Source: Candidatus Omnitrophota bacterium (GTDB lineage: Bacteria > Omnitrophota > Gorgyraeia > Duberdicusellales > 4484-171). Taken from it: a stretch of DNA of 64,000 nucleotides. The stretch is taken from NCBI GenBank assembly GCA_021735655.1, contig JAIPGM010000001.1, positions 224,001 to 288,000 of the forward strand, read 5' to 3'. Both the position numbers and the translations under genes were made by a program. This document shows, piece by piece, positions 31,214-53,049 of the stretch. Each line of letters begins with the position of its first letter. The stretch's first letter is position 1. The notes beneath the pieces were generated by a model, which worked only from the letters and a program-made list of their open reading frames with translations, was not told the origin of the DNA and made no database searches.

Positions 31214-32640
31214 TGAAAATAGCCTTAATACATCCATTGTATCGACATAAAATATTTTCCGAGAATTTACGGGTTGTTGATGAAGAGTTTTGTCAGGCAC
31301 CGCCGATAATTTTGGCTTATGTTGCGTCTATTTTACGCCAAGCTGGTCACAAAGTAATTTTAATAGATGCTTACACCCTTAGGCTTTCAAAAAAGAAGGT
31401 TTTGGGTATTTTGCGTAATTTCAAGCCAGATTTTCTTGGGTTTCGGTTGGAATCTTACCATTTTCATAACACTCTTGACTGGATAAAAACTTTAAAGTCG
31501 GAGTTGGGTATTCCAATCATAGTTGGCGGAATCAATCTAAAATTATATCTTAAAGAGTCACTTTTTTATCAGGAGATAGATTACGGCATCTTGGATGATG
31601 CCCTGGAGAGTTTGCCTAAGCTTCTTCGGGCTTTGGCCGAAAGCAGAGACCTTAGAACTATAGAAGGTCTTGCCTATCGGCATAAGGGAAAACTGATGAT
31701 TAACCCGCCTTCCGATAAAGCCATCGGCTTTGACAATTTTCCTTTTCCGGCCCGGGATTTACTTCCTAACGATAAATATGTTTCTTTTCTTTCAAAGAGA
31801 AAGAATTTTACGATTATGGTTACTAGCCGGGGTTGTCCGTATAATTGTTATTTTTGCGCGATTTCTAACAGCCAGGTTTATGAGGAAAGGTCAGCCCAAA
31901 ACGTCGTTGACGAAATCGAAGAGTGCTACCATAAATATAATATTCGTGAGATAGACTTTTTTGACGCCACATTCTTTTTTAATAAGAAAAGATTTTTCGA
32001 GATAAGCAAAGAAATGAAGAAACGAAATATTAAAATTGAGTGGTCTTGTAGATCTAGGGTAGACGTAGTCGATGAGGATATAATTAAAGAGGCTAAATCT
32101 ATAGGATGTAGACAGATATTGTTTGGGATAGAGTCGGCAGACCAACAAGTGCTACAAGGAATCCAAAAAAAAATAAGCATTGAAAAAGTTAAGGACAGCA
32201 TTAAGCTTTGCAGGAAATACAATATTTTAACTATGGGTTTTTTCATGATCGGAAACCCCGGAGAAACCAGGGATAGCATAAATAGATCAATTAAATTCGC
32301 AAAAGATCTAGGCTTGGATTTTGTGCAGTTTTGCAGGGCAATTGCTAAACCTAATTCAGGATTAAACGAGATACTGAAAAGTAAGACTGGTAAGGATTAT
32401 TGGAGCGACTATATGCTTGGTAAGGAAAAGGAACGAAGGATGTTAACTCCTTGGGTTGACCTATCCCAAGAGGAGATAGAATATTATACAGTTAAAGCCT
32501 ACCGTAGTTTTTACTTTCGACCTGTGCATATTCTCAAGATTACCTTAAAAGTAAAATCTTTTTCTGAATTTGTTAAGTATCTCCGGGTTGGATTACGGAT
32601 GCTTTTTGGAAATAAAAAAGAATATGACCTTAAAAGATAA
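31213..32640 (+). CDS. B12-binding-domain radical SAM enzyme
   Basis: An N-terminal B12-binding-like domain (MKIALIHP…IIVGG) precedes 'MVTSRGCPYNCYFCAIS', which carries CX3CX2C. Confidence 0.8.
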   Translation: MKIALIHPLYRHKIFSENLRVVDEEFCQAPPIILAYVASILRQAGHKVILIDAYTLRLSKKKVLGILRNFKPDFLGFRLESYHFHNTLDWIKTLKSELGIPIIVGGINLKLYLKESLFYQEIDYGILDDALESLPKLLRALAESRDLRTIEGLAYRHKGKLMINPPSDKAIGFDNFPFPARDLLPNDKYVSFLSKRKNFTIMVTSRGCPYNCYFCAISNSQVYEERSAQNVVDEIEECYHKYNIREIDFFDATFFFNKKRFFEISKEMKKRNIKIEWSCRSRVDVVDEDIIKEAKSIGCRQILFGIESADQQVLQGIQKKISIEKVKDSIKLCRKYNILTMGFFMIGNPGETRDSINRSIKFAKDLGLDFVQFCRAIAKPNSGLNEILKSKTGKDYWSDYMLGKEKERRMLTPWVDLSQEEIEYYTVKAYRSFYFRPVHILKITLKVKSFSEFVKYLRVGLRMLFGNKKEYDLKR

Positions 32641-33616
32641 ACTTCATTCTTTCAATTGTATGTTTAAAGTAAGGTTTTTAAAAAAAAGAATACCTTTGGC
32701 GGTCCGTCTTCAGGTTACAAATCGCTGTACATTACAATGTAAATATTGCAATCTTTGGAACACAAAAACTGAAGAATTCACCAAAGAAGAAATATTTAGT
32801 CTTATCGATCAATTAGCCGTTTTGGGGGCTAAAAGAATTTCTTTTAGTGGCGGAGAGCCGTTGCTAAGAAAAGATATAGGTGAGATCATAAGCTATTGCC
32901 GAGAAAAAAGTATTTATCCTGAAATGAATTCCAATGGCACATTAGTGCCTGAAAGAGTAGATGAAATTAGTAACTTAGATTTTCTAAAATTGAGTCTAGA
33001 CGGGCCAAAAGAAATACACGATTTATTACGGGGCAAAGGTTCCTATGGACAGGTTCTAGCGGCTGCTGATTCTGTTTCTAAGAAGGGGATGAATTTTGGT
33101 TTTGCCACGACTTTAACAAAGTATAATATAGATCATCTTGATTTTCTTCTTGCTATAGCAGAAAAGTACAATACGATAGTGGCTTTTCAGCCTTTAAAGC
33201 AACTCTATCGAGGGATAAGTGACATTTCTAATTTAGCGCCATCTCAGGATAAATTTAAAAAGGCTATTGATAAGCTTATCCAAACTAAGAAATCCGGTAA
33301 TAGGCATATGCGTAATTCCCTTCGCGGACTTAAGCATATTTATAATTGGCCAAAATATAAAAAACTTAGATGCTGGTCGGGGCGGCTTTTTTGTATTATT
33401 AATGCCGATGGTGAGCTATTTCCTTGCGATAGAATTAATTATAATTCTCCGCTCCCGAATTGTAAAAAACAGGCCTTAAAGTTAGCTTTAGATCAGTTAC
33501 CTCAAGCGCATTGTTCGGGATGCGGTTTTTGTGGCTCTTTAGAGCTAAATTATCTTATGAATTTTAAACTCGATATTATTTCTTCGATAAGAAAGATATT
33601 AGATAAACAAGAATAA
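32624..33616 (+). CDS. Radical SAM/SPASM enzyme, family A paralog
   Basis: 'VTNRCTLQCKYCNLW', 'SGGEPLLRKDI' and a SPASM tail (CSGCGFCGSLELNYL). ATG 32624 was chosen to match paralog N-termini. The ORF track starts at 32570. Confidence 0.8.
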   Translation: MTLKDKLHSFNCMFKVRFLKKRIPLAVRLQVTNRCTLQCKYCNLWNTKTEEFTKEEIFSLIDQLAVLGAKRISFSGGEPLLRKDIGEIISYCREKSIYPEMNSNGTLVPERVDEISNLDFLKLSLDGPKEIHDLLRGKGSYGQVLAAADSVSKKGMNFGFATTLTKYNIDHLDFLLAIAEKYNTIVAFQPLKQLYRGISDISNLAPSQDKFKKAIDKLIQTKKSGNRHMRNSLRGLKHIYNWPKYKKLRCWSGRLFCIINADGELFPCDRINYNSPLPNCKKQALKLALDQLPQAHCSGCGFCGSLELNYLMNFKLDIISSIRKILDKQE

Positions 33617-33626
33617 AGAAGGTTAT

Positions 33627-34916
33627 ATGGTTCAAAATAATTCTGGAAAGTGCTTAAAATTTATATACTCTAGCATAGCGTGTGTAATCGTTAGTTGTAT
33701 ATTATTTGTAACTTTAGAGGTAGGGGCTAGGTATTTATTTCCCAATAATGATCGACTTCAAGAGATACTTCGTGTTTTAGAGCAAGATTCAATACTTTTT
33801 TGGCGCCAGAGGGAAAATTTAGATACAGAATTTCAAAAGACAGGCCTAAAGACAAATTTTATCGGCTTAAGGGACGAGGTTCAGAATTTCGGCAAAAAAG
33901 CAAATCTGGTTAGGGTTATTTGCTTGGGTGCATCGCCGACATTTGGATGGGCAGTGGAAGGTGAAGACTCTTATCCCGACCAGCTAGAAAATATGCTTAA
34001 TCATAACCCCAAAGGCAAAAAAATTTACGAGGTCATAAATGCCGGAGTCATCGGATATAGTTCTTATCAGGGGTTATTATTTTTAAAAAATGAATTGCTC
34101 AGGTTTGATCCGGATATTATTACCATAGCTTATGGAGTTAATGATATGGACAAGCACAGATTCTATCGGAGCAATGGCAAAATGGATAAGGAATTGTATC
34201 CTAAGAATAGGAGCTCAGTTTTTCTGGAGAACATTTTTAATAATAGTAAATTAGTTAGAGTGTGCAGGGATTTTGTTTTATATCTTAAAGGTTACAGGAA
34301 AGATTTTTCAGGAATTAAAGGAAGTACTTTTTCTGATAGCGTAAGAGTATCGCCTCAAGATTATAAAAATAATCTCGATGAGATTTTAAAGATAGCTAAG
34401 AAGAAAGGAATAAAAATCATATTCATTAAAATGCCCATGGACCTATCTTTACCGGAACCAATATCAGACCAAAAAAAACTTAAAGCTGAGGAGTATTTAT
34501 CAATCGGACTAAAGCTCATTAAGGCGAGAGCTATAGACCAAGCGATTGCAAATCTTAAAAAGGCAGCTATAAATAATCCTTATTCAAGCGAAGTTTTTTA
34601 CTATTTAGGAATGTGTTATGAATTAGAAAAAGATTCCCTATCGGCAAAAGATTATTTTTTGAAAGCGAAGGAGGCTCAAGCCTATCAGCATAGGAAAGAT
34701 ATCCAAATTTATCAAGATCTCATGCAGCAATTAGCTGATACTAAAAATATACCTTGCCTGGATGCGATGCGTGCGGTTGTTGGAAGTAATAATAAGAGTT
34801 TTTTTAAAACACCAATCCACCCCAATGCTTCAGGTCATAAAATTATTGCCGGGCTATTATATGATGCTTTAACTGATAATGATTACTTATTAAACGATGA
34901 GGAAAATAGGAGGTAA
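33627..34916 (+). CDS. SGNH-hydrolase-fold protein with a C-terminal TPR-like region
   Basis: An N-terminal transmembrane segment is present. The SGNH blocks are 'ICLGASPTFGW', 'NAGVIGYSS', 'GVNDMD' and 'HPNASGH'. The C-terminal region is TPR-like (…AIANLKKAAINNPYSSEVFYYLGMCYE…). Confidence 0.5.
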   Translation: MVQNNSGKCLKFIYSSIACVIVSCILFVTLEVGARYLFPNNDRLQEILRVLEQDSILFWRQRENLDTEFQKTGLKTNFIGLRDEVQNFGKKANLVRVICLGASPTFGWAVEGEDSYPDQLENMLNHNPKGKKIYEVINAGVIGYSSYQGLLFLKNELLRFDPDIITIAYGVNDMDKHRFYRSNGKMDKELYPKNRSSVFLENIFNNSKLVRVCRDFVLYLKGYRKDFSGIKGSTFSDSVRVSPQDYKNNLDEILKIAKKKGIKIIFIKMPMDLSLPEPISDQKKLKAEEYLSIGLKLIKARAIDQAIANLKKAAINNPYSSEVFYYLGMCYELEKDSLSAKDYFLKAKEAQAYQHRKDIQIYQDLMQQLADTKNIPCLDAMRAVVGSNNKSFFKTPIHPNASGHKIIAGLLYDALTDNDYLLNDEENRR

Positions 34917-34918
34917 TC

Positions 34919-36196
34919 GTGGATAAAAATAATACTCATAATACATCTAAGAAGACCAAATATCGTTTAAGGGCAAAAGTTTGCATAAGTTTGTTTAGTC
35001 TGTTTTTTTCTTTAATCGTACTGGAGGTAGTTTTAAGAATTATTGGGCATGTTTATTTTTCATCGCGACCAACGGCAGATGAAATATTTGCAGAATTCCA
35101 AAATAAACAAGGCGAAAGAGTAATTTTGTGTATTGGTGATTCTTACACAGTTGGGGCTAACGTAGGAGAGAAAAACGCCTGGCCTAGTAAATTGCAGATT
35201 ATGCTGAATGAGGGGTATGGTGAAGGTAAATTTCACGTTGTTAATAGCGGTGTATGCGAGATCAATTCTGCTCAGGTTCTAGAGATATTACCTCGCTACA
35301 TAGAACGTTACAAACCTGAGATAATTATTTTTTTGGTTGGAGTTGCTAACCAATTCAATTTTATTGGATTCGACAGGGAAGCAGAAACCTATTTGAAATT
35401 GCCTAACTTTGTTTATAAGCTCAGAACTTACAAGATGTTAAGGATTGTAGCTTTAAATATTCGGCAAAAGATTTTTAAAGATAGTTTCGAGCAAGATAGT
35501 ACTTTTGCTACTCAAGCATCGCTATCAAAGCGTCAATTGAGTAAAGCTCTTAATCCAGACGAGCACATATTTGCAGAAATAGCAGATGCTGATTATGACT
35601 TAATTGAGCACCTAAGGGCGGCAGGTGAGCACGATAAAGCTTCTGATTTGTTTAGAAAATCGGTGTTGGTCATTGACCCTAATTCAGAATTGTTTGCTTA
35701 TTATGGTCCTGAATTTATACTTGATATATATGACGATATGTATAATAGCAAAACCTTGAGTGTGGATGAGGTGCTTTCTGATTTTAGAAAAAATCTAGAA
35801 AGTAACCCTAGTCTGAAAGATGATAAGGCGTTCATGGACTATTATTCGTATTTACAAAGTATAGATAAATTCTATAAAGCAAAAAGAATTGAGCAGCAGC
35901 TGATAAATGATTTGGATAAGATTATTAGTGTGTGTCGAGACAATAATGTCAGAATTGTTATCCAAAATTACCCTTACCCTTATCCAATGATTGACAAGGT
36001 CATAGCCGATGTAGCTCTCAAATATTCTTTAACTTTAGTCGATCAAGGCAGAATTTTTAGTAGGTTAATTGCTAGGAATAAAAGAGAGATTTATTTTCAA
36101 GATGATCTTCATTGCACCCCTTTGGGGTACCGGATTATGGCAGAAAACATATATAATGTTTTTAAGCAAGAGGATATCGGCAAAATAGAACCATAG
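34919..36196 (+). CDS. SGNH/GDSL hydrolase-fold protein
   Basis: An N-terminal transmembrane segment is present. The blocks are 'ILCIGDSYTVGANVG', 'VNSGVCE' and 'DDLHCTPLGY'. Confidence 0.5.
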   Translation: MDKNNTHNTSKKTKYRLRAKVCISLFSLFFSLIVLEVVLRIIGHVYFSSRPTADEIFAEFQNKQGERVILCIGDSYTVGANVGEKNAWPSKLQIMLNEGYGEGKFHVVNSGVCEINSAQVLEILPRYIERYKPEIIIFLVGVANQFNFIGFDREAETYLKLPNFVYKLRTYKMLRIVALNIRQKIFKDSFEQDSTFATQASLSKRQLSKALNPDEHIFAEIADADYDLIEHLRAAGEHDKASDLFRKSVLVIDPNSELFAYYGPEFILDIYDDMYNSKTLSVDEVLSDFRKNLESNPSLKDDKAFMDYYSYLQSIDKFYKAKRIEQQLINDLDKIISVCRDNNVRIVIQNYPYPYPMIDKVIADVALKYSLTLVDQGRIFSRLIARNKREIYFQDDLHCTPLGYRIMAENIYNVFKQEDIGKIEP

Positions 36197-36208
36197 GGAG
36201 GTTAACAA

Positions 36209-36388
36209 ATGAAAAGAAAAACTAGTTTTAAACAGAATAAAGAGATTCTGTGGCAAATATTCTTTTTGATTAAAGAAAATAAGAAATGGTGGTTACTGCC
36301 TATATTTTTAGTATTAGTAATTTTAGGTTTATTTGTCAGCTTGACAGGAAATCAATCTATTTTGCCTGCAGTTTACGCTTTATTTTAA
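36209..36388 (+). CDS. DUF5989-like small membrane protein (59 aa)
   Basis: Not in the ORF track. GGGAGG lies 7 nt upstream. The translation is MKRKTSFKQNKEILWQIFFLIKENKKWWLLPIFLVLVILGLFVSLTGNQSILPAVYALF*. This matches the DUF5989 pattern (…KKWWLxPI…, C-terminal …P.iYtLF). Confidence 0.5.
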   Translation: MKRKTSFKQNKEILWQIFFLIKENKKWWLLPIFLVLVILGLFVSLTGNQSILPAVYALF

Positions 36389-36403
36389 TATTACTGAAAT
36401 AAA

Positions 36404-36592
36404 ATGGCAACATTATTAAGAAAAGTTATTGCTTCTGTTGTTTGTTCTATAGCATTGCTATTGCCGCATAGACTTAGAATTATCTATTGCGAGATACTTG
36501 GCTGGTCGATGCAATTAATCTTTTGGGCTTATATTTCTATACTTAAATTTATAATAAAGTCACTTAAAGTGGGTAAAATTAAAACGCAATGA
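36404..36592 (+). CDS. Small hydrophobic protein (62 aa), hypothetical
   Basis: The ORF is in the track and has two predicted membrane helices. It sits between the DUF5989-like gene and a PP-loop ATPase. No confident family was recognised. Confidence 0.3.
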   Translation: MATLLRKVIASVVCSIALLLPHRLRIIYCEILGWSMQLIFWAYISILKFIIKSLKVGKIKTQ

Positions 36593-37425
36593 AAGAGCTT
36601 GTTATTTTATACTCTGGCGGAACAGATTCAACCTGTGCCGCAGCTTTAATGGCTAAAGAGTTTGATAAGATCCATTTATTATCTTATACACGTTTTGGTG
36701 TATTTTCGATAGAAAATTCTAAAAAAAATGTCGAAAGGCTTGTAGAAAAATTCGGTAAAGATAAGTTTATTCATAAAATAATCGATGTAGATAAAATATT
36801 TCGAAAGGTATCGTATTCTAACTACATGCATAATCTTAGAAAACATAAGTTTGTTATGCTTACGATGTGTGGTTTGTGTAAAATAACTTTGCATATTCGT
36901 TCTTTAATGTATTGCTTAGACAATGATATAAAGTATGTGTGTGATGGTGTGGATAAAAGCATGGTTTTATTCCCAACCCACATGAGGGAGGTAGTTGGCT
37001 TAATCAAAGATATGTATTTTCGTTACGGAATTATCTATTCGTTGCCAGTATATGAATGTGGCACCCCTAGAAAAATAGGATATTTTGATAAATATAAATT
37101 AGATTTAAACATTTCAGAGCCAGATAATTTCGCTGTTGATTCTGAGTCGAACAATCCTACAACTGGTGAAATATTGCATAAAATGGGCATTTTTCCTTCG
37201 GATAATATTAAAGGAACAAAGCTTGATCATCAGATGCAGTATAGATGTTTTCAATTTATATTAACTTATATATTAGCACTTTGGTATTATTTGCCAAAAG
37301 ATGGTTATGAAAAATATAAGGATGTGTGTATAGAATTCTATAAAGAAAAGATAAATTATTTTTACCCTTTGTTAGATGAATATTTTAATAAAAAAGAAAG
37401 CAGTAGCCTAGCTAGATTGCGATAA
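36589..37425 (+). CDS. PP-loop superfamily ATP pyrophosphatase (QueC/ExsB-like)
   Basis: 'LVILYSGGTDSTCAAALM' is the SGGxDS PP-loop. Additional Cys are present (MCGLCK). Confidence 0.55.
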   Translation: MKELVILYSGGTDSTCAAALMAKEFDKIHLLSYTRFGVFSIENSKKNVERLVEKFGKDKFIHKIIDVDKIFRKVSYSNYMHNLRKHKFVMLTMCGLCKITLHIRSLMYCLDNDIKYVCDGVDKSMVLFPTHMREVVGLIKDMYFRYGIIYSLPVYECGTPRKIGYFDKYKLDLNISEPDNFAVDSESNNPTTGEILHKMGIFPSDNIKGTKLDHQMQYRCFQFILTYILALWYYLPKDGYEKYKDVCIEFYKEKINYFYPLLDEYFNKKESSSLARLR

Positions 37426-37486
37426 AATTTAAAAATAACGAGCCAGTGTGCAGAATTTGCTAAGGATAATAATTTAAATTAAGCCG

Positions 37487-38464
37487 ATGAAAAATATTGA
37501 GAAAGTAAGATTAGCTTGCGCTTTACTGAGAATAAAATTATTGAAAAAAAGAATACCTTTGATAGTTAGCTGGTCGTTAACCTATAGGTGTAATCATAAA
37601 TGTTTATATTGTGGCATTTGGGAAAAAACTTCGGATGAATTAAGCAACGAACAAATTTTTTCACTTATCGACCAAATGGCGGCGGCAGGGACTCAACGGA
37701 TACATTTTACCGGTGGTGAGCCCTTATTAAGAGATGATATCGATAAGATTCTGATTTATTGTAAAAAAAAGGGAATAAGTACTGCATTGAATTCTAATGG
37801 GTTTTTGATTCCTGAAAAAATAAAATCCCTTATTAATCTCGACTTATTGTCGTTAAGCTTAGATGGGCCAGAAGCGGTGCATGATTCCATCAGAGGTAAG
37901 GGCTCTTACCAACAAGTAATGGGAGCGATAGAGGCAGCTAAGAAAAATAATATAAAAATAAAAATAATAACCGTATTGTCAAAGTTAAATCTAGGCCATA
38001 TTGATTTTATTTTGCATAAAGCGCAGGAATTGAAGATTCCGGTTACTTTCCAACCGACGACGATTTCGGTGCTTGAGGGAAGTAAGCCTAACTCCATTGC
38101 CGCTATCAAAGAAGAGTATAATCAAGCAGTTAGCTATTTAATAAAAGAAAAAAGAAAAAACAAATATATAGGTAATTCTTGTTCAGGATTAAAACATCTT
38201 TATGATTGGCCATCACCGTCAAAAATTTCCTGTGTAAATAGTCGCATTATTTGTCGTCTTGAACCTGATGGCCGTCTTTATGGATGCAATGATTATAAAA
38301 ATAAAGGCCTTGCGGTAGATTGCATAACCCTTGGCTTTAAAAAAGCTTTTGATAGCCTTGTGCCTTTTGCTTGTGATGAATGCTGGTGCGCTTCACTTGT
38401 AGAATTAAACTGTTTATTTGCCATAAAATTAGATACTGTTTTTAGTATTATCAAGTTAATTTAA
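37487..38464 (+). CDS. Radical SAM/SPASM enzyme, family A paralog
   Basis: 'LTYRCNHKCLYCGIW', 'TGGEPLLRDDI' and a SPASM tail (CDECWCASLVELNCL). Confidence 0.8.
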   Translation: MKNIEKVRLACALLRIKLLKKRIPLIVSWSLTYRCNHKCLYCGIWEKTSDELSNEQIFSLIDQMAAAGTQRIHFTGGEPLLRDDIDKILIYCKKKGISTALNSNGFLIPEKIKSLINLDLLSLSLDGPEAVHDSIRGKGSYQQVMGAIEAAKKNNIKIKIITVLSKLNLGHIDFILHKAQELKIPVTFQPTTISVLEGSKPNSIAAIKEEYNQAVSYLIKEKRKNKYIGNSCSGLKHLYDWPSPSKISCVNSRIICRLEPDGRLYGCNDYKNKGLAVDCITLGFKKAFDSLVPFACDECWCASLVELNCLFAIKLDTVFSIIKLI

Positions 38465-38473
38465 TGATATGAA

Positions 38474-39463: not shown

Positions 39464-39466
39464 TAT

Positions 39467-42904: not shown

Positions 42905-42939
42905 TATATTATAATTAATCTATTCATTTTGGAGTGTTG

Positions 42940-43764: not shown

Positions 43765-43864
43765 TGTAGCATTAAAAGAAGCGTTTGAATCTTTTTTGCT
43801 TATTTTTTAAAGATGGATTTATGATTATTATTTTTTAAATGTTCACTACTTAGAAAGTATTATT

Positions 43865-45559: not shown

Positions 45560-45569
45560 GATTGTAATT

Positions 45570-46586: not shown

Positions 46587-46608
46587 TAGCAGAATTAATT
46601 GAATATTT

Positions 46609-47466
46609 ATGAAAAAAGTTATAATCAATGCTGATGATTTTGGGTTAACTGAAGGAATTAATAAAGGAATAATAGAAGCACATAAGAAAGGGGCAGTGAC
46701 TAGTGCATCATTAATGACAAATATGCCATCATTTTATGATGCTATAAGGTTAGCTAAAGATAATCCTGGTTTGGGTGTGGGGGTTCATCTTAATATTGTG
46801 CGCGGTGAGCCGGTTCTTCCTTTAGGGAACGTTAGAACGCTTGTTGATAAAGAAGGTTTTTTCCTGCGAAATATTTTTAAAATTATAGCAGGCATATATC
46901 AGAATAAAATAGATTTGATTGAGCTTGAGTCGGAATGGGTTGCTCAGATTGAGAGAGCTTTAGAAAATGGAATGTCAGTTACTCATCTAGATAGCGAAAA
47001 GCATCTGCATTTGATAGGGCCAGCTTTAAAGATTCTTAAAGTGTTGGCAAAACGCTATAAGATATCAAAAATAAGAGCGATTAATGAGCCTATGTATTTT
47101 AATAAGATATTTTCGAACCCTTTTTGCATTTTTAGAAAATGTTTTTATAAAACACTAGTTGTTAATTTGTTATCAAACCAAATGCAGGGCTTAAGATCTA
47201 CTGATTATTTTTACGGTTCTTACGAAGCAGGCAATATGATTTTAGAAAAATATCAAAATTTGTTTTCTTGCCTAGAGGATGGTCTTACTGAAATAATGTG
47301 TCATCCAGGCTATATCATCGGAGAGCAAGAGCGTACTTTACTTAATTATAATAGATATTCGCTAATCGGTAAACGCGAACGCGAATTGCAGGCATTGATT
47401 AATCCAAAGTTCAGCGAATTAGTGAAGCAATTCAATATAAGTTTAGTTAGTTATAAGGATGTATAA
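46609..47466 (+). CDS. YdjC/ChbG-family carbohydrate deacetylase
   Basis: 'MKKVIINADDFGLTEGINKGIIEAHKKGAVTSASLM' is the canonical YdjC N-terminus. Confidence 0.7.
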   Translation: MKKVIINADDFGLTEGINKGIIEAHKKGAVTSASLMTNMPSFYDAIRLAKDNPGLGVGVHLNIVRGEPVLPLGNVRTLVDKEGFFLRNIFKIIAGIYQNKIDLIELESEWVAQIERALENGMSVTHLDSEKHLHLIGPALKILKVLAKRYKISKIRAINEPMYFNKIFSNPFCIFRKCFYKTLVVNLLSNQMQGLRSTDYFYGSYEAGNMILEKYQNLFSCLEDGLTEIMCHPGYIIGEQERTLLNYNRYSLIGKRERELQALINPKFSELVKQFNISLVSYKDV

Positions 47467-47478
47467 GTTAAAGGCGGC

Positions 47479-48219
47479 ATGATAAAAGATATTTCTGTAA
47501 TTATACCTTTGCATAATGAATCCAAGAATATAATGATTCTTTATGACAAGTTAAAAAAGGAATTAGAGCGCTTGAGTAGGGATTATGAGATTATTTTTGT
47601 GGATGATGGGTCCGACGACGATACCTTCAGAATATTAACTGATATTTACGAGAAGGATACCTCAGTAAACATTATTAGTTTTGATAGAAATTATGGCCAA
47701 ACCGCCGGTTTGGCCGCAGGATTTAAGTTTGCAAAGGGAAATATTATTATTACCATGGACGGAGACTTGCAGCATGATCCAGAGGATATTCATAAGTTTA
47801 TCGATAAAATTCAGGACGGTTACGATATGGTAGGTGGGTGGAAAGTTAAAAGATCCGATAACTTTTTTACAAGAAGGCTGCCATCTTTAATTGTAAATAG
47901 AGTAATTTCTTTTTTATTTAAGGTAAAGATGCACGAAGTAAGTTCAACTTATAAGGCTTACAAGAAAGACGTGGTCAAAAATATATTTTTGTACGGTGGT
48001 TTGCATCGTTTTATCCCTTTACTTATTGAAAGCAATTGTTCAGTGTGCGAGGTAGAGATAAGGCACAATAAAAGGCTTTATGGCAAGTCCCATTACAATA
48101 TCGGCAGGGTAGGGAGTGTTATTCACGATTTAGTAATGTTATTGTGGGCGCGTGGTGATAAAAGCTCTAAGCCAAAAAAGCTTGTTTATTCAATAAAAGA
48201 CATGAAATATCATAAGTAA
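47479..48219 (+). CDS. GT2 polyprenyl-phosphate glycosyltransferase (GtrB/DPM1-like)
   Basis: 'ISVIIPLHNESKNI', 'IIFVDDGSDDDT' and 'TMDGDLQHDP' (a DxD motif). Confidence 0.75.
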   Translation: MIKDISVIIPLHNESKNIMILYDKLKKELERLSRDYEIIFVDDGSDDDTFRILTDIYEKDTSVNIISFDRNYGQTAGLAAGFKFAKGNIIITMDGDLQHDPEDIHKFIDKIQDGYDMVGGWKVKRSDNFFTRRLPSLIVNRVISFLFKVKMHEVSSTYKAYKKDVVKNIFLYGGLHRFIPLLIESNCSVCEVEIRHNKRLYGKSHYNIGRVGSVIHDLVMLLWARGDKSSKPKKLVYSIKDMKYHK

Positions 48220-48229
48220 ATATATCATT

Positions 48230-49837
48230 ATGACTACAGCGCGATATTCAAAAAATACAGAAAGACTTTTGTTGGGTATTTTGGCGGTGATTTCTCTTTT
48301 GGTTACTTTATATTGCCAGTACCCTTTGTTGACAAATAAATATGCGATTAACGATGATGTGCGCCAAGAAATCTACTTTTATAGTAATTACAATAATAGT
48401 AATCTTTTTCGGAACGATCCAATAACTGATTATTACCGAAGTTGGAATCCTTCGGGATTAAATACATTTTATTATTTTGCAAGCCTGTTTCATGATCCGA
48501 TAGGGGTTACAAAAATATTACCTTTTTTTCTTTGTGTGTTTTCGGCGCTTTACATGTTCGGGATAGGTAAGATATTGAAAGGTAATCTTTGTGGATTCTT
48601 AAGCGGCCTTTTGTTTATTTCTTTAGCCTGGAGCAGAGAGGCTTTTGAAGTTTTTGGTACCGGCAATGGAGAAGATTTTGCGGTAGTTTTCTGTGTGATG
48701 TTTTTGTATTATCTATTGAAAAAAGATTTACTTAAGTCTAGTATAACTTTGATTTTGCTTTCACTTTTCCACCCGTCCTTACTTCTAATTTGTCTATTGA
48801 CTCAATTTTTAGTTTTGATTATAGATTGCCTGAAACATAATAAATCAGCCTCAAAGAAACTATTGGGTTTTATGATAACCTTAATAATAATATTTTTAAT
48901 ATTGTGGCCAAAATATTTATCTGGTCAAATAAAGCTTACTAAATTAAAAGAGATGAAGGCCATGGAGGAGTTTTATCCCGGAGGGAGAAAACCACTTTTT
49001 TTTGAGTCTAGTTATGAACGCTGGACTAACTACGAGAGTGGTTTGGCAATAGATTATCCTTTGAGATGGTTGTTTGGGGTCGCTTCGATCGCCCTCCTTG
49101 TTCTCAGAAAGAAAATTTTGAAGGTTATGCCACCGCAGCTGTTTTATTTTATATTTATTTCTTTTGTATTGTTTGGGATCGCAAATTTATTCATGTATTC
49201 GCTATACGGTCCTTCAAGATATGTTAGATATCCGTTACCTTTATTTTTAATTTTTATTATAACCTTAGGTGTTAGTGAGATTACACAAAAGATAAAGGTG
49301 TCAGCAGGCAGGATAGCACTTATAACAGGGTTTATCGCCTTGATTGGTTTATCCTTTGCGCCTAAGCTACATGCTCATTATGTCGTAGCTCCCTATCCCG
49401 GCCTTTATAGGTTTTTATCAACGCTTCCTGAAAGTAGTCTTATTGCCGGACACCCGGTTTTAATGGATGATGTGCCTACTTTTGCCAAAAGAATAGTGTT
49501 TATTAGTCAAGAAACCTCTATGCCTTATTACGCTAATTTTTATCCTTTCATTAAGAAGCGCACCTATGATTTTTTCCGGGCCTATTATTCTAATGATTTG
49601 CGAGAAATTGATGATTTTTTTAAAAAGTATAATATAACCCACATGGTTGTCCAAAAAAGTAATTTTTCCGAGGACTACATAAAAAGATCTCAATTTTATT
49701 TTAATCCTTTTAATGCTTACGTTGAAGATATTATAAAGAATAGAAAGAAATTTGCCTTAATGGACGTCCCTCAAGATAGCAGATTGTTTGAGACCGAAGA
49801 TGTTTTTGTGATCGCAAAGGATAGCCTTGTTTTCTAA
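48230..49837 (+). CDS. Polytopic membrane protein, GT-C-like
   Basis: About 12 transmembrane segments. The first loop has an acidic motif (AINDDVRQEIY) and there is a C-terminal soluble domain. Confidence 0.4.
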   Translation: MTTARYSKNTERLLLGILAVISLLVTLYCQYPLLTNKYAINDDVRQEIYFYSNYNNSNLFRNDPITDYYRSWNPSGLNTFYYFASLFHDPIGVTKILPFFLCVFSALYMFGIGKILKGNLCGFLSGLLFISLAWSREAFEVFGTGNGEDFAVVFCVMFLYYLLKKDLLKSSITLILLSLFHPSLLLICLLTQFLVLIIDCLKHNKSASKKLLGFMITLIIIFLILWPKYLSGQIKLTKLKEMKAMEEFYPGGRKPLFFESSYERWTNYESGLAIDYPLRWLFGVASIALLVLRKKILKVMPPQLFYFIFISFVLFGIANLFMYSLYGPSRYVRYPLPLFLIFIITLGVSEITQKIKVSAGRIALITGFIALIGLSFAPKLHAHYVVAPYPGLYRFLSTLPESSLIAGHPVLMDDVPTFAKRIVFISQETSMPYYANFYPFIKKRTYDFFRAYYSNDLREIDDFFKKYNITHMVVQKSNFSEDYIKRSQFYFNPFNAYVEDIIKNRKKFALMDVPQDSRLFETEDVFVIAKDSLVF

Positions 49838-49854
49838 AGGAGTTTACGCTAGCC

Positions 49855-51072
49855 ATGTTTATAAAAGCTATACCACCGCATAGGATAGCCGTTACATATA
49901 AAGAAATGTTAAAGCTATTAAGCCTTTTTTTCCAGAGGAAGCTTATGGAGGGCGATTCTATTGAGGAATTTGAACAGAGGTTTGCTGAATATATCGGAAC
50001 CGAATCGGCCTGTGCTGTTTCCTCGGGAAGATACGGATTGAAATTGATACTAGAGTCTTTAGGGCTAAAAAAAGGCGATGAAATAATTATCCCGGCTTAT
50101 ACTTTTTATGTTGTTCCCGAAGTGGTCAAAAAGGCGGGGTTTGTCCCGGTGTTCGTGGACATAAACGCTAATGATTATAATATAGATACCCGATGTATAG
50201 AAGAGAAAATTACCGAAAAGACAAAAGTTATCATTGCGGTACACCTTTTCGGAAAACCTTGCGAATTGGATAGAATATCAGAGATTGCTAAAAAGCATGG
50301 TTTGTTCGTGATTGAAGATTGTGCACAGTCAATTGGCGCTGAATATCGAAATAAAAAAGTCGGATCTTTCGGTAATTGTGCCTATTTCAGTTTTGAAACA
50401 GTAAAACCTTTTCATACTTTCGGCGGAGGAATGATAGTAACTAGTAACAAATCATTACATCAAAAGTTAAAAAAAGCTACGCAGGTATGTTCTTACCCGA
50501 AGTATTCGGGAGTTGCTAAGAAGATATTTTTTACCATTATGGAATCAATGTTAACCAGCTATTTTTTGTTCACAATTTTTATATACCCACTTTTTTTCCT
50601 GGCCATGATTTTTGGTAAAGATCTTAAGAAAGTCGCCAAGCGGACAAAGGGAAAATTTAAGTTGCTTCAGACAAGGTATACTAATTTTCAGGCTTCAATA
50701 GGAATTCTTAAATTTGGAGCCTTAGATTTTCAACTTGAAAGAATGATTATGAATGTAAAGCTTCTAAATGAAAGATTAGATCAAAGTATAGCCACTCAGA
50801 ATTTAGACGACCATACTAAGCCTATATTTTATTACTTTGTTGTTAAAAGCAAAAATAGGAAGAATTTTTCTAATGTTTTATTCCGTAAGGGGATAATCGG
50901 GACTACTAATATGGCACAAAATTGCTGTAAGGATAGTTCTCTCGGCGATTATTATCCGGTTGCCCGGGAAGCGGATGCCGATCTTTTTCAAATACCGGTA
51001 TACAGTAATTTTTCTTTAAAAGACATTGAGCGTTTGTCTAGCATTCTAAATAGGTATTTTAAACAAGAATAG
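49855..51072 (+). CDS. DegT/DnrJ/EryC1-family PLP-dependent sugar aminotransferase
   Basis: 'HLFGKPCEL', 'EDCAQSIGAEY' and 'SFETVKPFHTFGGG' with the Schiff-base Lys are present. An internal hydrophobic segment (SYFLFTIFIYPLFFLAMIFG) is unusual. Confidence 0.6.
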   Translation: MFIKAIPPHRIAVTYKEMLKLLSLFFQRKLMEGDSIEEFEQRFAEYIGTESACAVSSGRYGLKLILESLGLKKGDEIIIPAYTFYVVPEVVKKAGFVPVFVDINANDYNIDTRCIEEKITEKTKVIIAVHLFGKPCELDRISEIAKKHGLFVIEDCAQSIGAEYRNKKVGSFGNCAYFSFETVKPFHTFGGGMIVTSNKSLHQKLKKATQVCSYPKYSGVAKKIFFTIMESMLTSYFLFTIFIYPLFFLAMIFGKDLKKVAKRTKGKFKLLQTRYTNFQASIGILKFGALDFQLERMIMNVKLLNERLDQSIATQNLDDHTKPIFYYFVVKSKNRKNFSNVLFRKGIIGTTNMAQNCCKDSSLGDYYPVAREADADLFQIPVYSNFSLKDIERLSSILNRYFKQE

Positions 51073-51077
51073 CGAAA

Positions 51078-52058
51078 ATGAAGTCGTATAAAAAATTATT
51101 GGTTGGCGGTGCTATACTCGGAAAAATATTGTTGAAGAAAAGGACACCACTTCTGGTTAGTTGGGTAATCACCGAGAGGTGTAATTATCGTTGTAAATAT
51201 TGCAGTATTTGGAATAAAAAAGTAAGAGATTTAGATTATCAGAATGTTTGCGCTGTCATTGATAAATTATCGAAATGGGGAACTAAAGCTATAGCTTTCA
51301 TTGGAGGCGAACCGCTTTTGCGTGATGATATAGGAAAGATTTTAAAGTATTGTTATCAGAAAGGAATATATACCAAGTTAACCACCAATGGTTCTTTAAT
51401 TTCTAAAAAGCTAGACCAGATTAAAGACGTCGGGTCTGTTAAGTTGAGTTTTGACGGCCCCAAAGAGGTACATGATTCAAACCGCCAGTCGGGTTCTTAT
51501 GAGCATGCTATCGGCGCTGCAGAGCTGCTAAAGAAATCCAAGATTAAAGTGATCTTTAATTGTGTTATTTCTAAAACGAATGTGGAAAGGCTTGATTACG
51601 TATTGTTAATTGCCGCTAAGCTCGGTATCAGAGTTACTTTCCAACCTTTGGAGTTTCGCAATGATCAGGATTTCATATTCGACAATATGCCTTCGGAAGC
51701 TAAATATAAAAAAGCCATAAATAGGCTTATATATGAAAAGAAAAGAGGAAATAGGTACATTGCTAATTCGCTGCCCGGCTTACGATATTTGTATAATTGG
51801 CCCCATGGCAAAGAGTTAAAGTGCTGGGCCGGAACGCTTCATTTTAGGATAGGTCCTCAAGGCAGTTTTTCTGCTTGTGACAGGATTCCTGACGGCTACT
51901 TACCGTTTGATATTTTGAAAGGAGATTTTAAGTCAGCCCTTAAGGGTATGCGGCCCCCCAACTGTAGCCAAGGTTGCTGGCGGAACACAACCATTGAGTT
52001 AAATTATCTTTTATCTCTGCATCCTTTGGCGATATTAAATGCGGTTAATGTCTTTTAA
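51078..52058 (+). CDS. Radical SAM/SPASM enzyme, family A paralog
   Basis: 'ITERCNYRCKYCSIW', 'IGGEPLLRDDI' and a SPASM tail (CSQGCWRNTTIELNYL). Confidence 0.8.
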   Translation: MKSYKKLLVGGAILGKILLKKRTPLLVSWVITERCNYRCKYCSIWNKKVRDLDYQNVCAVIDKLSKWGTKAIAFIGGEPLLRDDIGKILKYCYQKGIYTKLTTNGSLISKKLDQIKDVGSVKLSFDGPKEVHDSNRQSGSYEHAIGAAELLKKSKIKVIFNCVISKTNVERLDYVLLIAAKLGIRVTFQPLEFRNDQDFIFDNMPSEAKYKKAINRLIYEKKRGNRYIANSLPGLRYLYNWPHGKELKCWAGTLHFRIGPQGSFSACDRIPDGYLPFDILKGDFKSALKGMRPPNCSQGCWRNTTIELNYLLSLHPLAILNAVNVF

Positions 52059-52065
52059 ATGGGTA

Positions 52066-53049
52066 ATGAAATTAATAAATAAAATAGCTTCTCTTAAATC
52101 TATCCTAAAGGCTAAATGCTTTTCTTACCGGATTCCTTTAATAGTAAGTTGGCATTTGGTTAATCGATGCAATCGAAAATGTAAATATTGTTATCGATGG
52201 AGCACCGTTGAGAAAGAACTATCCAGCGATGAGGTTTTTTGCGTAATCGATGTATTGTCTCAAATGGGCAACCAGGTGATAATATTTAGCGGCGGAGAGC
52301 CTTTACTTAGGGATGATATAGGTAAAATCATAGATTATAGTCAGGCTAAGGGTATCTTTACGGGGTTGACCTCTAACGGTGATTTAGTCCCAGAAAGAAT
52401 AAATGAGATTAAGGGATTGGATATGCTAAAGATAAGTTTCGATGGTCCGAAAGATGTACATGATTTTTTAAGGGGTAAAGGGTCATATGACAATGTTATG
52501 GTGGCCATTGAAACGGCAAAAAAATACAACATCAAGGTTAAGTTCAATACTACTTTAACTAAATATAATATAGAATATATAGATTTCATTTTGGAAAAGG
52601 CAAAGCAATTAAATGTAAAAGTAAAATTTCAACCGGTTAGCCATGTGCACTCAGCCGGAAAAGACATTCGCGATTTTTTTCCCGAGATTAAAGAGTATAA
52701 ACAGGCGGTTCAAAGGTTGATCGACTCAAAAAGGACTAATAAATTTATTATTAATTCGATTGCTAGCCTTAACTATCTTAGTACTTGGCCGCACCCTCTA
52801 AAATTAAAATGTTATGCCGGAAAATTAATCTGTTGCATCACAGCTAATGGAAAAGTTTGGCCTTGTTCAGCGGCGCGTGAGGAATCTTATCATTTGAACT
52901 GTTTAGACCCAAAATTTAAAAAGATGTTTGCTCGAGGGTTGGCTATGCCATTTTGTCAGGGCTGTTGGTGCTCAAGTACTTTGGAACTAAATTGCCTGAT
53001 GAAGTTTAACCTTAATACAATTTTAAACATTAGAAGATTATTTGATTGA
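52066..53049 (+). CDS. Radical SAM/SPASM enzyme, family A paralog (tandem with the 51078 gene)
   Basis: 'LVNRCNRKCKYCYRW', 'SGGEPLLRDDI' and a SPASM tail (CQGCWCSSTLELNCL). ATG 52066 was chosen. The ORF track starts at 52039, inside the upstream gene. Confidence 0.8.
   Translation: MKLINKIASLKSILKAKCFSYRIPLIVSWHLVNRCNRKCKYCYRWSTVEKELSSDEVFCVIDVLSQMGNQVIIFSGGEPLLRDDIGKIIDYSQAKGIFTGLTSNGDLVPERINEIKGLDMLKISFDGPKDVHDFLRGKGSYDNVMVAIETAKKYNIKVKFNTTLTKYNIEYIDFILEKAKQLNVKVKFQPVSHVHSAGKDIRDFFPEIKEYKQAVQRLIDSKRTNKFIINSIASLNYLSTWPHPLKLKCYAGKLICCITANGKVWPCSAAREESYHLNCLDPKFKKMFARGLAMPFCQGCWCSSTLELNCLMKFNLNTILNIRRLFD

What the first reader, a model, noticed from the sequence alone, without database searches (positions are those of the whole stretch)
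32624..53049. Five family-A rSAM/SPASM paralogs, partly as tandem pairs, giving 13 radical SAM genes in 64 kb
Family A members (~325 aa, …LKKRIPL…W..TNRCN..C.YC..W…GGEPLLRDDI… with a SPASM tail CxxC(W)C…ELN(C/Y)L) occur at 32624, at 37487+38474 as a tandem pair, and at 51078+52066 as a tandem pair. The 32624 copy directly follows a B12-rSAM (31213). Together with family B (four copies), the RiPP rSAM at 1288, the rSAM at 45570 and two B12-rSAMs, this is an extraordinary density of radical SAM enzymes in a glycan locus. The paralogs are diverged, about 40-50% identity by eye, so this is ancient duplication and specialisation rather than recent repeats. Either they modify sugars or lipid-linked intermediates, or they are maturases for unlinked or very small precursors that are not visible here.
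Basis: seen in the sequence. Interest (0 to 1): 0.7.

Follow-up and report, generated by a model that had tools for sequence, protein, structure and literature searches.

The report
Sugar-tailoring radical SAM paralogs in glycan locus
Five old, diverged copies of an uncharacterised iron-sulfur "radical SAM" enzyme sit in a cell-surface sugar locus of an uncultivated Omnitrophota bacterium, and gene fusions found in other microbes tie this enzyme family to a sugar aminotransferase and a B12-dependent radical enzyme, so it most likely modifies sugars rather than peptides.

Summary
Five intact paralogs (32624, 37487, 38474, 51078, 52066; 35-46% identical) lie in a 64-kb window of an Omnitrophota MAG. 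The window has 13 radical SAM (rSAM) genes among 54 ORFs of at least 100 aa.

Corrections:
- The C-terminal tail is a twitch-type domain with four invariant Cys, not a full SPASM.
- Family B has three copies, not four.
- One rSAM gene (1288) lies in a RiPP cassette and two more (5161, 7797) next to it at 1-9 kb, outside the glycan locus.

Each paralog has closer relatives in other genomes (58-66% identical) than inside the window, and the tandem pairs recur in another locus. The duplications are therefore old.

Across 21 loci from at least six bacterial phyla and two archaeal lineages, the family co-occurs with a B12-rSAM, a DegT-type sugar aminotransferase, a UPF0104 flippase-like membrane protein and GT2/GT-C glycosyltransferases. 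All three pairwise fusions exist: DegT-famA in both orders, B12-rSAM-famA, and B12-rSAM-DegT. No RRE or precursor peptide accompanies family A.

Best reading: anaerobic sugar tailoring, most likely BtrN-like oxidation of an alcohol to a ketone that feeds transamination, possibly on polyprenyl-phosphate-linked sugars. The family is uncharacterised and has no curated model. I class it as a new variant of a known kind.

The parts
32624..33616 (+). Family A rSAM paralog 1 (twitch-type), directly after the B12-rSAM
   Evidence: PF04055 87.8 bits. 35-42% identical to the other paralogs. All 7 invariant Cys present.
37487..38464 (+). Family A paralog 2, first gene of tandem pair 1
   Evidence: PF04055 106.8 bits. 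AF2 model pLDDT 94.3. Ortholog at 61% identity in L090, again followed by the 38474 ortholog.
38474..39463 (+). Family A paralog 3, second gene of tandem pair 1
   Evidence: PF04055 95.9 bits. Ortholog at 58% identity in L090, adjacent to the 37487 ortholog.
51078..52058 (+). Family A paralog 4, first gene of tandem pair 2, directly after DegT
   Evidence: PF04055 84.8 bits. 50% identical to the rSAM half of the natural DegT-famA fusion P0226/L088. The DegT-to-famA adjacency is conserved in L088, L090 and L091.
52066..53049 (+). Family A paralog 5, second gene of tandem pair 2
   Evidence: PF04055 92.1 bits. 46% identical to 37487. Closest outside relatives are 64% identical.
31213..32640 (+). 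B12-binding rSAM, conserved partner of family A
   Evidence: B12-binding plus Radical_SAM. Best NCBIfam hit is HpnJ, 179 bits, below the cut-off of 577.6. Orthologs at 41-60% identity lie next to famA in L001, L004, L005, L007, L009, L087 and L090. Fused to famA in P0336 and to DegT in P0236.
49855..51072 (+). DegT/DnrJ/EryC1-type sugar aminotransferase with a hydrophobic insertion, conserved partner of family A
   Evidence: PF01041 245.7 bits in two stretches. Best NCBIfam hits are PseC, WecE, LegC, ArnB and DesI, over the N-terminal half only. The PLP lysine K184 is invariant and a hydrophobic insert at about 231-257 is conserved in 9 homologs. Fusions: P0226, P0293, P0236.
55166..56107 (+). 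UPF0104 / LPG_synthase_TM flippase-like membrane protein
   Evidence: PF03706 133.9 bits. TIGR00374 59.2 bits, above the cut-off of 43.2. Homologs lie directly next to famA in L001, L003/4, L007, L010, L011 and L091, and in the same locus in L009 and L092.
29109..31213 (+). GT2 (C-terminal TM helices) plus family B rSAM, pair 1
40815..42904 (+). GT2 plus family B rSAM, pair 2
53075..55164 (+). GT2 plus family B rSAM, pair 3
36589..37425 (+). PP-loop ATPase-like protein upstream of tandem pair 1
   Evidence: Weak QueC, NAD_synthase and DUF7411 hits. A homolog at 30% identity follows the famA/B12 run in L005.
39467..40846 (+). FAD-dependent oxidoreductase (amine oxidase / UDP-galactopyranose-mutase-like) after tandem pair 1
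   Evidence: Homologs in L007 and L090.
42934..49837 (+). Arn-like block between the two tandem pairs: polysaccharide deacetylase, GT-C (PMT_2), rSAM/SPASM 45570, YdjC deacetylase (HpnK/ChbG-like), ArnC-like GT2, and a multi-TM protein
33627..36388 (+). Two membrane-anchored GDSL/SGNH proteins and a DUF5989 small membrane protein between paralog 1 and pair 1
   Evidence: The same GDSL-DUF5989-famA-famA order occurs in L090.

Best explanation
Family A is an uncharacterised subfamily of twitch-type radical SAM enzymes, with one radical-SAM [4Fe-4S] cluster and one auxiliary cluster held by four cysteines. It tailors sugars of a cell-envelope glycan.

It works in one pathway with a DegT-type PLP sugar aminotransferase and a B12-dependent rSAM. 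The most likely chemistry has three steps:
1. The 5'-deoxyadenosyl radical abstracts a hydrogen from a sugar carbinol carbon.
2. The auxiliary cluster takes the second electron, giving a keto-sugar. This is BtrN/anSME-type two-electron oxidation and needs no NAD.
3. The neighbouring or fused DegT enzyme transaminates the ketone to an amino sugar.

The B12-rSAM would add a C-methyl group or rearrange the ring. The five paralogs would differ in substrate or ring position.

The products are probably carried on polyprenyl phosphate. A membrane-anchored GT2 would make the lipid-linked sugar, the UPF0104 protein would flip it, and the many GT-C enzymes of the locus would transfer it to LPS or another envelope acceptor.

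Shown: the family, its cysteine pattern, the conserved neighbourhood and the fusions. Inferred: the dehydrogenase step, the lipid-linked carrier and the acceptor.

My confidence is about 0.8 that this is sugar or glycan tailoring linked to DegT and the B12-rSAM. It is about 0.35-0.4 for the specific alcohol-to-ketone step.
For: (1) Fusions. P0226 is DegT-famA, 737 aa, one open frame. It is 41% identical to window DegT and 50% identical to window 51078, which are adjacent genes in the same order in the window. P0293 is famA-DegT in the opposite order. P0336 is B12-rSAM-famA. P0236 is B12-rSAM-DegT from a Planctomycetota MAG.

(2) Neighbourhood in 21 loci that were not chosen for their context. 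A B12-rSAM is present in 16, DegT in 11, UPF0104 in 9, and glycosyltransferases (GT2, GT4, GT9, GT-C) in 13. None has a PqqD/RRE protein or an adjacent short ORF annotated as a precursor.

(3) Cysteine pattern. C249-x12-G262-x4-C267 ... C296-x2-C299 is invariant in 44 sequences. These are the first four Cys of the SPASM motif, which is the twitch pattern that fully ligates one cluster in BtrN (PMC6231123). The AF2 model (pLDDT 94.3) places a beta-hairpin between C249 and C267.

(5) Precedent. BtrN, a twitch rSAM dehydrogenase, makes the ketone in butirosin biosynthesis (PMC9012708). From my own knowledge, that ketone is aminated by the DegT-family enzyme BtrS.

(6) No conventional keto-sugar route in the window. 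No SDR 4,6-dehydratase or epimerase and no sugar nucleotidyltransferase is present among all 54 ORFs.

(7) Membrane link. The DegT subfamily carries a conserved hydrophobic insert. The GT2 partners have C-terminal TM helices. The window contains an ArnC-like GT2 (47479), a second short GT2 (56239) whose weak best NCBIfam hit is the polyprenyl-phosphate GalNAc synthase PpgS, a UPF0104 protein, four PMT_2 GT-C proteins and two YfhO-like proteins.
Against: - No biochemical data exist for any member of the family.
- DegT-rSAM coupling would also fit DesI/DesII-type deamination, or epimerisation.
- The hydrophobic insert in DegT was scored only with a hydropathy scale.
- Fused genes in metagenome assemblies could in principle be frameshift or gene-calling artefacts. 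Against this, four different architectures were found, and the DegT-famA and famA-DegT fusions were each read on three contigs.
- A conventional keto-sugar pathway could lie outside the window.
Confidence: 0.5

Rival explanations
1. The pathway and substrates are the same (envelope sugars, together with DegT and the B12-rSAM), but family A does different radical chemistry. Options are C-epimerisation (NeoN/AviX12-like), DesII-like deamination or dehydration of the amino sugar made by DegT, decarboxylation (BlsE-like), or C-C bond formation.
Against: A fully Cys-ligated auxiliary cluster is typical of the two-electron oxidising members (BtrN, anSME, PqqE, SuiB; PMC9012708). From my own knowledge, DesII has no auxiliary cluster. 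The NCBIfam BlsE model is not among the 25 best hits of any family A paralog.
Confidence: 0.27
2. Family A, the B12-rSAM, the YdjC protein, the GT2 and the UPF0104 protein form an hpnHIJKL-like cassette. It builds or remodels a polar head group (for example a cyclitol or aminocyclitol) on a membrane lipid such as an isoprenoid or glycolipid, rather than on a polysaccharide.
For: The B12-rSAM's best NCBIfam hit is HpnJ (179 bits). The YdjC protein's best hit is HpnK (178 bits, cut-off 232.6). UPF0104 is the HpnL family, and HpnI appears among the GT2 hits (PMC12324291). The archaeal tetraether-lipid synthases Tes and GDGT-MAS appear among weaker hits.
Against: All Hpn models score far below their cut-offs. 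HpnH scores 56-70 bits against a cut-off of 225. No squalene-hopene cyclase or lipid-synthesis genes occur in the window. The loci instead carry Wzy_C, a WecA-like gene, GT9 heptosyltransferase-like genes and many GT-C genes.
Confidence: 0.12
3. Family A enzymes are RiPP maturases acting on small or unlinked precursor peptides.
For: The best sequence hits in the PDB and NCBIfam include SkfB, CteB, PqqE and the mycofactocin maturase. A genuine RiPP cassette lies in the same window at 995-2653.
Against: Only about 30 residues precede CX3CX2C, so there is no N-terminal RRE. No PqqD-like partner or precursor-like small ORF lies next to any of the five genes; the intergenic gaps are at most 10 bp inside the pairs. 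None is annotated next to family A in the 20 other loci. Fusions are to DegT and B12-rSAM, never to peptide-binding domains. Every NCBIfam RiPP model scores far below its cut-off.
Confidence: 0.03
4. Family A takes part in cofactor biosynthesis (NirJ/AhbC/AhbD-like tetrapyrrole chemistry, MoaA-like, or chemistry related to the nickel-pincer cofactor).
For: NirJ, AhbC/D and MoaA models are among the top NCBIfam hits at 85-120 bits. larB, larC and larE lie 10 kb upstream.
Against: All scores are 3-6 times below their cut-offs. No tetrapyrrole or molybdopterin genes are nearby. The conserved partners are glycan enzymes. The lar genes are not next to family A, and no lar homolog was detected in the related loci that were compared with the window proteins.
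Confidence: 0.03

Closest known systems
BtrN / BtrS (butirosin 2-deoxystreptamine pathway): twitch rSAM dehydrogenase plus DegT-family aminotransferase
   Same: One auxiliary cluster held by four Cys in the twitch pattern (PMC6231123). Functional pairing with a DegT-family aminotransferase. Oxygen- and NAD-independent logic that suits strict anaerobes.
BlsE (cytosylglucuronate decarboxylase, blasticidin S; PDB 7vob)
   Different: 19% identity. The NCBIfam BlsE model is not among family A's 25 best hits. It belongs to a nucleoside-antibiotic pathway with no DegT or B12 partners.
DesI / DesII (desosamine) and the gentamicin GenD2-GenS2-GenD1/GenK logic
   Same: A sugar aminotransferase works directly with an rSAM enzyme. 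B12-rSAM C-methylation of amino sugars belongs to the same tailoring line. This comparison rests on my own knowledge of these pathways.
   Different: Those are secondary-metabolite pathways acting on NDP-sugars or pseudo-oligosaccharides. DesII has no auxiliary cluster. No fusions or UPF0104/GT-C partners are known there.
Arn pathway and three-component periplasmic glycosylation (polyprenyl-phosphate GT2 + flippase + GT-C; also CsbB/YfhO and DPA in mycobacteria)
   Same: An ArnC-like GT2 (150 bits to the ArnC model), an ArnB-like DegT, a deacetylase of the ArnD superfamily, a flippase-like membrane protein, and 4-7 GT-C proteins. There is precedent for modifying the sugar while it is lipid-linked.
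   Different: No rSAM enzymes are known in those systems. Scores are below the equivalog cut-offs. The acceptor is unknown.
hpnHIJKL hopanoid side-chain cassette
   Same: The same set of protein families: rSAM, B12-like rSAM (HpnJ is the best hit), YdjC (HpnK is the best hit), GT2, and UPF0104 (HpnL family) (PMC12324291).
   Different: All scores are below cut-off and there are no hopanoid core genes. DegT and GT-C are not part of the hpn cassette.

Membership tests
Radical SAM superfamily (PF04055) | CX3CX2C cluster motif and a Pfam Radical_SAM score above the gathering threshold | tested here: met
   All five have CX3CX2C and score 84.8-106.8 bits against a cut-off of 29.5.
SPASM subclass | Seven-Cys motif CX9-15GX4C-gap-CX2CX5CX3C-gap-C binding two auxiliary clusters (PMC6231123); PF13186 above threshold | tested here: not met
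   Only four C-terminal Cys are invariant in 44 sequences. There is no CX2CX5CX3C. PF13186 is absent in four paralogs and scores 19.7 against 21.5 in the fifth.
Twitch subclass | Truncated SPASM: the first four Cys of the motif (CX9-15GX4C ... CX2C) around a beta-hairpin plus helix, binding one auxiliary cluster | tested here: met
   C249-x12-G262-x4-C267 ... C296-x2-C299 is invariant or nearly so. The AF2 model has a hairpin at E255-258/E263-265 followed by a helix. Actual cluster binding cannot be tested with these tools.
RiPP-maturase rSAM | An RRE/PqqD-like domain or partner protein, and an adjacent precursor peptide gene | tested here: not met
   About 30 residues precede CX3CX2C. No precursor-like small ORF or PqqD neighbour is present. 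None is annotated next to family A in the other loci. The window's own cassette at 995-2653 has all three features.
BtrN-type rSAM dehydrogenase | Homology to BtrN | tested here: not met
BtrN-type rSAM dehydrogenase | Works like BtrN: a fully Cys-ligated single auxiliary cluster and coupling to a DegT-family aminotransferase | tested here: met
   Four-Cys pattern. DegT adjacency in at least 6 loci and fusions in both orders.
BtrN-type rSAM dehydrogenase | Two-electron oxidation of a secondary alcohol to a ketone | not testable with these tools
   Needs anaerobic reconstitution and product analysis.
PTO1314 family rSAM (TIGR03961), the best NCBIfam hit | Score above the curated cut-off of 306 bits | tested here: not met
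   96.7-123.3 bits.
HpnH adenosyl-hopene transferase (TIGR03470) | Score above the cut-off of 225 bits | tested here: not met
   At most 70 bits: 56-70 bits in the four paralogs where the model reaches the 25 best hits, and outside the 25 best for 37487.
BlsE (TIGR04466) | Score above the cut-off of 400 bits | tested here: not met
   Not among the 25 best NCBIfam hits of any family A paralog, although BlsE is the closest solved fold.
Three-component polyprenyl-phosphate glycosylation system (context) | A polyprenyl-phosphate GT2, a flippase-type membrane protein and a GT-C transferase encoded together | tested here: met
   At domain level only. ArnC-like GT2 47479 (149.9 bits, below the equivalog cut-off of 529). 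UPF0104 55166 (TIGR00374 59.2 bits, cut-off 43.2). PMT_2 proteins 9908, 11519, 23673 and 43865, all above the Pfam threshold.

The most novel reading that the evidence does not exclude
Uncultivated anaerobes from at least six bacterial phyla and some archaea have an NAD-independent, radical-based route to amino, branched or carbocyclic sugars that runs at the membrane on polyprenyl-phosphate-linked sugars. In this route a twitch rSAM oxidises the lipid-linked sugar. A DegT aminotransferase with a membrane-embedded hairpin aminates it. An HpnJ-like B12-rSAM methylates it or contracts the ring. A UPF0104 protein flips it, and GT-C enzymes attach it to LPS or another envelope acceptor. Paralog sets of five or six family A enzymes would then generate a combinatorial surface-sugar repertoire.
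Probability: 0.22. Interest if true: 0.78.

Novelty: new variant of a known kind. Interest (0 to 1): 0.62.

Why it matters
Radical SAM tailoring of sugars is known almost only from antibiotic pathways (BtrN, DesII, BlsE, AprD4, GenK).

Here a large family is wired by conserved synteny and four kinds of gene fusion to a sugar aminotransferase and a B12-rSAM, inside envelope-glycan loci of phyla with few or no cultured members. The family has at least 150 clusters (at 50% identity) of close full-length members, and 3641 clusters at E <= 1e-30. It has no curated model and no characterised member.

The work gives a concrete target for enzymologists: the natural DegT-famA fusion. It suggests how strict anaerobes make keto and amino sugars without the usual SDR dehydratases. 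It also predicts unusual surface sugars in Omnitrophota, Elusimicrobiota, Planctomycetota and DPANN archaea. Finally, it warns genome miners that SPASM/twitch rSAM density should not be read as RiPP potential.

Tried and rejected
- The related-loci scan of genome contigs used the generic rSAM pattern [TS]GGEPLLRxD. Most of the 80 loci were other rSAM families, matching only residues ~20-270. Only L007-L015 were full-length family A members and were used.
- The first two homolog searches did not return any fusion, because candidates are picked through a word index. The fusions came from reading contexts, from a search with the fusion itself, and from the exhaustive representative search.
- Foldseek against afdb50 was not available.
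- Literature searches for this cassette found nothing that describes it. They combined radical SAM with Omnitrophota, with polyprenyl/B12/flippase, and with DegT/polysaccharide. The Omnitrophota preprint only lists radical SAM among the domains of giant proteins.
- The review by Grell et al. 2015 (PMC4326806) is not held. The twitch and SPASM definitions were taken from PMC6231123 and PMC9012708 instead.
- I tested whether the DUF362 protein next to larBCE resembles a solved LarA structure by sequence. It does not.
- HpnH, PTO1314, viperin, NirJ/Ahb and MoaA memberships were considered and rejected on curated cut-offs.

Full report
**Source and layout.** The window is part of a 341-kb contig of a Candidatus Omnitrophica/Omnitrophota MAG; protein P0001 is 100% identical to the product of 37487-38464. 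GC content is about 35%, and almost all genes are on the + strand with minimal spacing.

**Check of the observation.**
- Thirteen ORFs carry CX3CX2C, and all pass the Pfam Radical_SAM threshold. That is 13 of the 54 ORFs of at least 100 aa.
They are 35-46% identical to each other, with E 1e-74 to 1e-99.
- None is a pseudogene. All keep the radical SAM cysteines and four further invariant cysteines.
- Family B has three members (30098, 41828, 54058; 32-36% identical). Each lies directly downstream of a paralogous GT2 with C-terminal TM helices (29109, 40815, 53075).
- 45570 and 7797 form a separate pair with a strong SPASM hit.
- 1288 belongs to a RiPP cassette at the 5' end, and 5161 and 7797 lie next to it in the 1-9 kb region. 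The cassette has a PqqD-like ORF at 995-1288, an rSAM/SPASM gene at 1288-2442, and a 57-aa precursor at 2480-2653 that ends in GCGCCGCCCCW.

**What family A is.** In a 44-sequence alignment the invariant cysteines are C35, C39 and C42, plus C249, C267, C296 and C299, with G262 nearly invariant.
- The pattern C-x12-G-x4-C ... [quoted passage not shown] That is the twitch arrangement, which in BtrN fully ligates a single auxiliary [4Fe-4S] cluster (PMC6231123, PMC9012708).
- Pfam SPASM is absent in four paralogs and below threshold in the fifth.
- An AlphaFold2 model of 37487 is confident (pLDDT 94.3). It shows the partial TIM barrel, a beta-hairpin between C249 and C267, and following helices.
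- Only about 30 residues precede the radical SAM motif, so there is no RiPP recognition element.
- No curated family claims these proteins. The best NCBIfam model (PTO1314, TIGR03961) scores 97-123 bits against a cut-off of 306. NirJ/Ahb, mycofactocin, PqqE, MoaA, viperin and HpnH are all far below their cut-offs.

**Age of the duplications.** For every paralog, 15-66 database proteins score above its best in-window paralog. The top identities are 58-66%, against at most 46% within the window. A related metagenomic locus, L090, carries six family A genes that map onto the window paralogs:
- orthologs of 37487 (61% identical) and 38474 (58%), adjacent and in the same order;
- DegT (58%), then the 51078 ortholog (61%), then a 52066-like gene (44%), then a 32624-like gene (49%).

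The tandem pairs are therefore conserved units, not recent repeats.

**Conserved partners.** I read 20 further loci that contain full-length family A members. They come from Elusimicrobia, Desulfosudaceae and other Deltaproteobacteria, Planctomycetia, Polyangiaceae, Oligoflexia, Omnitrophota, a Woesearchaeota genome and a Methanosarcinales MAG, plus unbinned contigs.

| Partner | Loci (of 21, including the window) |
|---|---|
| B12-binding rSAM | 16 |
| DegT aminotransferase | 11 |
| UPF0104/LPG_synthase_TM | 9 |
| Glycosyltransferases (GT2, GT4, GT9, PMT_2/YfhO GT-C) | 13 |

- The B12-rSAM is often the 41-60% identical ortholog of window 31213, and it is directly adjacent to family A.
- The DegT gene is directly upstream of the 51078-clade member in the window, L088, L090 and L091.
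- The UPF0104 gene is directly adjacent to family A in six of its nine loci (L001, L003/4, L007, L010, L011, L091).
- Wzy_C also occurs in these loci. None has a PqqD/RRE protein or a precursor-like small ORF annotated next to family A.

**Fusions.** Four natural fusion architectures link the three enzyme types pairwise.
- P0226 (737 aa) is DegT-famA in one uninterrupted frame. It is 41% identical to window DegT over 399 residues and 50% identical to 51078 over residues 18-326. These are the two adjacent window genes, fused in their genomic order.
- P0293 (734 aa) is famA-DegT in the opposite order, which implies an independent event. It sits among four PMT_2 genes, a GT2, a GT9 and B12-rSAM genes.
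- P0336 (831 aa) is B12-binding/rSAM fused to famA, next to a GT9 and two more B12-rSAM genes.
- P0236 (861 aa, Planctomycetota MAG) is B12-rSAM fused to DegT. It is 29% identical to 31213 and 39% identical to 49855.
- In L005 a GT4 glycosyltransferase is fused to an rSAM domain that is only distantly family A-like.

**The DegT partner.** The DegT partner is a distinct subfamily. It keeps the PLP lysine (K184). Its N-terminal half matches PseC, WecE, LegC, ArnB and DesI. It carries a conserved, strongly hydrophobic insertion at about 231-257, with a Kyte-Doolittle score of 2.1.

**The surrounding locus.** The window is an envelope-glycan factory.
- Four PMT_2 GT-C proteins (9908, 11519, 23673, 43865).
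- Two paralogous 644-aa YfhO-like membrane proteins (25260, 27194).
- A further multi-TM protein (48230).
- An ArnC-like GT2 (47479) and a second short GT2 (56239) whose weak best NCBIfam hit is PpgS.
- A polysaccharide deacetylase (42934) and a YdjC deacetylase (46609).
- A UPF0104 protein (55166).
- Two GT4 genes, a WecA-like transferase, Wzy_C and a glycoside hydrolase at the 3' end.

No SDR 4,6-dehydratase or epimerase and no sugar nucleotidyltransferase occurs among the 54 ORFs.

**Mechanism.** The pieces fit the known scheme in which a sugar is loaded on polyprenyl phosphate by a GT2, tailored, flipped, and transferred by a GT-C enzyme, as in the Arn pathway, CsbB/YfhO and mycobacterial DPA (established knowledge). 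Here the tailoring enzymes are radical. A fully ligated single auxiliary cluster coupled to a DegT aminotransferase parallels BtrN, the twitch rSAM dehydrogenase of butirosin biosynthesis (PMC9012708), which works with the DegT-family enzyme BtrS (my own knowledge). I therefore propose three things:
- family A oxidises a sugar hydroxyl to a ketone, which DegT aminates;
- the B12-rSAM methylates the sugar or rearranges it (its best, sub-threshold hit is HpnJ);
- the paralogs differ in position or substrate.

The family, motif, synteny and fusions are shown. The reaction, the lipid carrier and the acceptor are inferred.

**Rivals.**
- Other radical chemistry on the same sugars (epimerase, DesII-like lyase, decarboxylase) is the main rival.
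- A lipid-head-group cassette related to hpnHIJKL is possible but weak, because every Hpn model scores far below its cut-off and no hopanoid core genes are present.
- RiPP and cofactor roles are disfavoured.

**Novelty.** I found no paper that describes this cassette. An exhaustive profile search finds 3641 clusters (at 50% identity) with E <= 1e-30. The best 150 all score above 327 bits, and nearly all are 310-350 aa long. Sugar-tailoring rSAM enzymes are a known kind. New here are this twitch subfamily, its fusion-backed triad with DegT and a B12-rSAM, and its use in multi-paralog sets inside envelope-glycan loci of uncultivated anaerobes.

Noticed in passing
window 995-2653 (and on to about 8843): A complete RiPP-like cassette: a PqqD-like 97-aa ORF (995-1288), an rSAM/SPASM gene (1288-2442; best hit is the ACGX-system model, 169 bits against a cut-off of 400), and a 57-aa precursor (2480-2653) ending in TTAGCGCCGCCCCW. 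Downstream lie a P-loop protein (2669), a B12-rSAM (5161), and on the minus strand an NTP_transf_5 gene (6614) and an rSAM/SPASM gene (7797). This block is separate from the glycan genes.
   Followed up: partly
window 18745-23676; L087 5190-8464: Bona fide larE (327 bits, cut-off 150), larB (293 bits, cut-off 175) and larC (PF01969, 478 bits) are followed by a DUF362 protein rather than a LarA. The run DUF362 (61% identical) - unknown 22705 homolog - GT-C 23673 homolog recurs in L087. This may point to a nickel-pincer-cofactor enzyme in glycan tailoring. DUF362 shows no sequence match to any solved LarA structure.
   Followed up: partly
window 13092-18748: A Dlt-like acylation set: an MBOAT (13092), a 78-aa carrier protein with a GIIDSMG motif (14308-14544), an acyl-CoA dehydrogenase (14572), an AMP-ligase (15695) and a membrane-anchored GDSL protein (17453).
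   Followed up: no
window 29109-31213, 40815-42904, 53075-55164: The two-gene unit 'GT2 with C-terminal TM helices + family B rSAM' occurs three times. The GT2 paralogs are 22-29% identical and the family B paralogs 32-36% identical. The best NCBIfam hit of two of the three GT2s is the MftF model, and the arsenosugar-GT-like TIGR04283 model appears for 29109 and 53075.
   Followed up: partly
window 49855-51072, residues about 231-257: The DegT aminotransferase carries a strongly hydrophobic insertion that splits the Pfam match in two. It is conserved in all nine aligned homologs, including the fused ones. This suggests a membrane-associated sugar aminotransferase.
   Followed up: partly
window 36209-36388; L090 6587-6766; L089 10954-11115: A 59-aa DUF5989 small membrane protein lies between the GDSL genes and the family A pair. 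It is syntenic in L090. In L089 a weakly matching DUF5989 ORF sits next to a carbamoyltransferase.
   Followed up: no
window 25260-29128: Two tandem 644-aa multi-TM paralogs (35% identical, E 6e-131) have no Pfam hit apart from a faint YfhO C-terminal match. They are probably divergent GT-C-type transferases.
   Followed up: no
L012 9814-14024 compared with window 58096-61339: A contig binned as a Methanosarcinales archaeon carries homologs of the window's GT4 (49% identical), second GT4 (52%) and WecA-like gene (44%) in the same order, plus a family A gene, a B12-rSAM and a GT-C. This is either cross-domain transfer or mis-binning.
   Followed up: no
L005 2710-8017: Further composite rSAM proteins occur in a run of about ten rSAM genes: a GT4 glycosyltransferase fused to an rSAM domain (694 aa), a 477-aa GT4-like/rSAM protein, and a 598-aa protein with two rSAM domains. 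They precede three tandem family A genes and two B12-rSAM genes.
   Followed up: partly
L001 4973-6124; L093 16352-17488; L094 6683-7891: Glyco_transf_9 (LPS heptosyltransferase family) genes flank the family A/B12-rSAM genes in three unrelated loci. This hints that the LPS core may be the acceptor.
   Followed up: no
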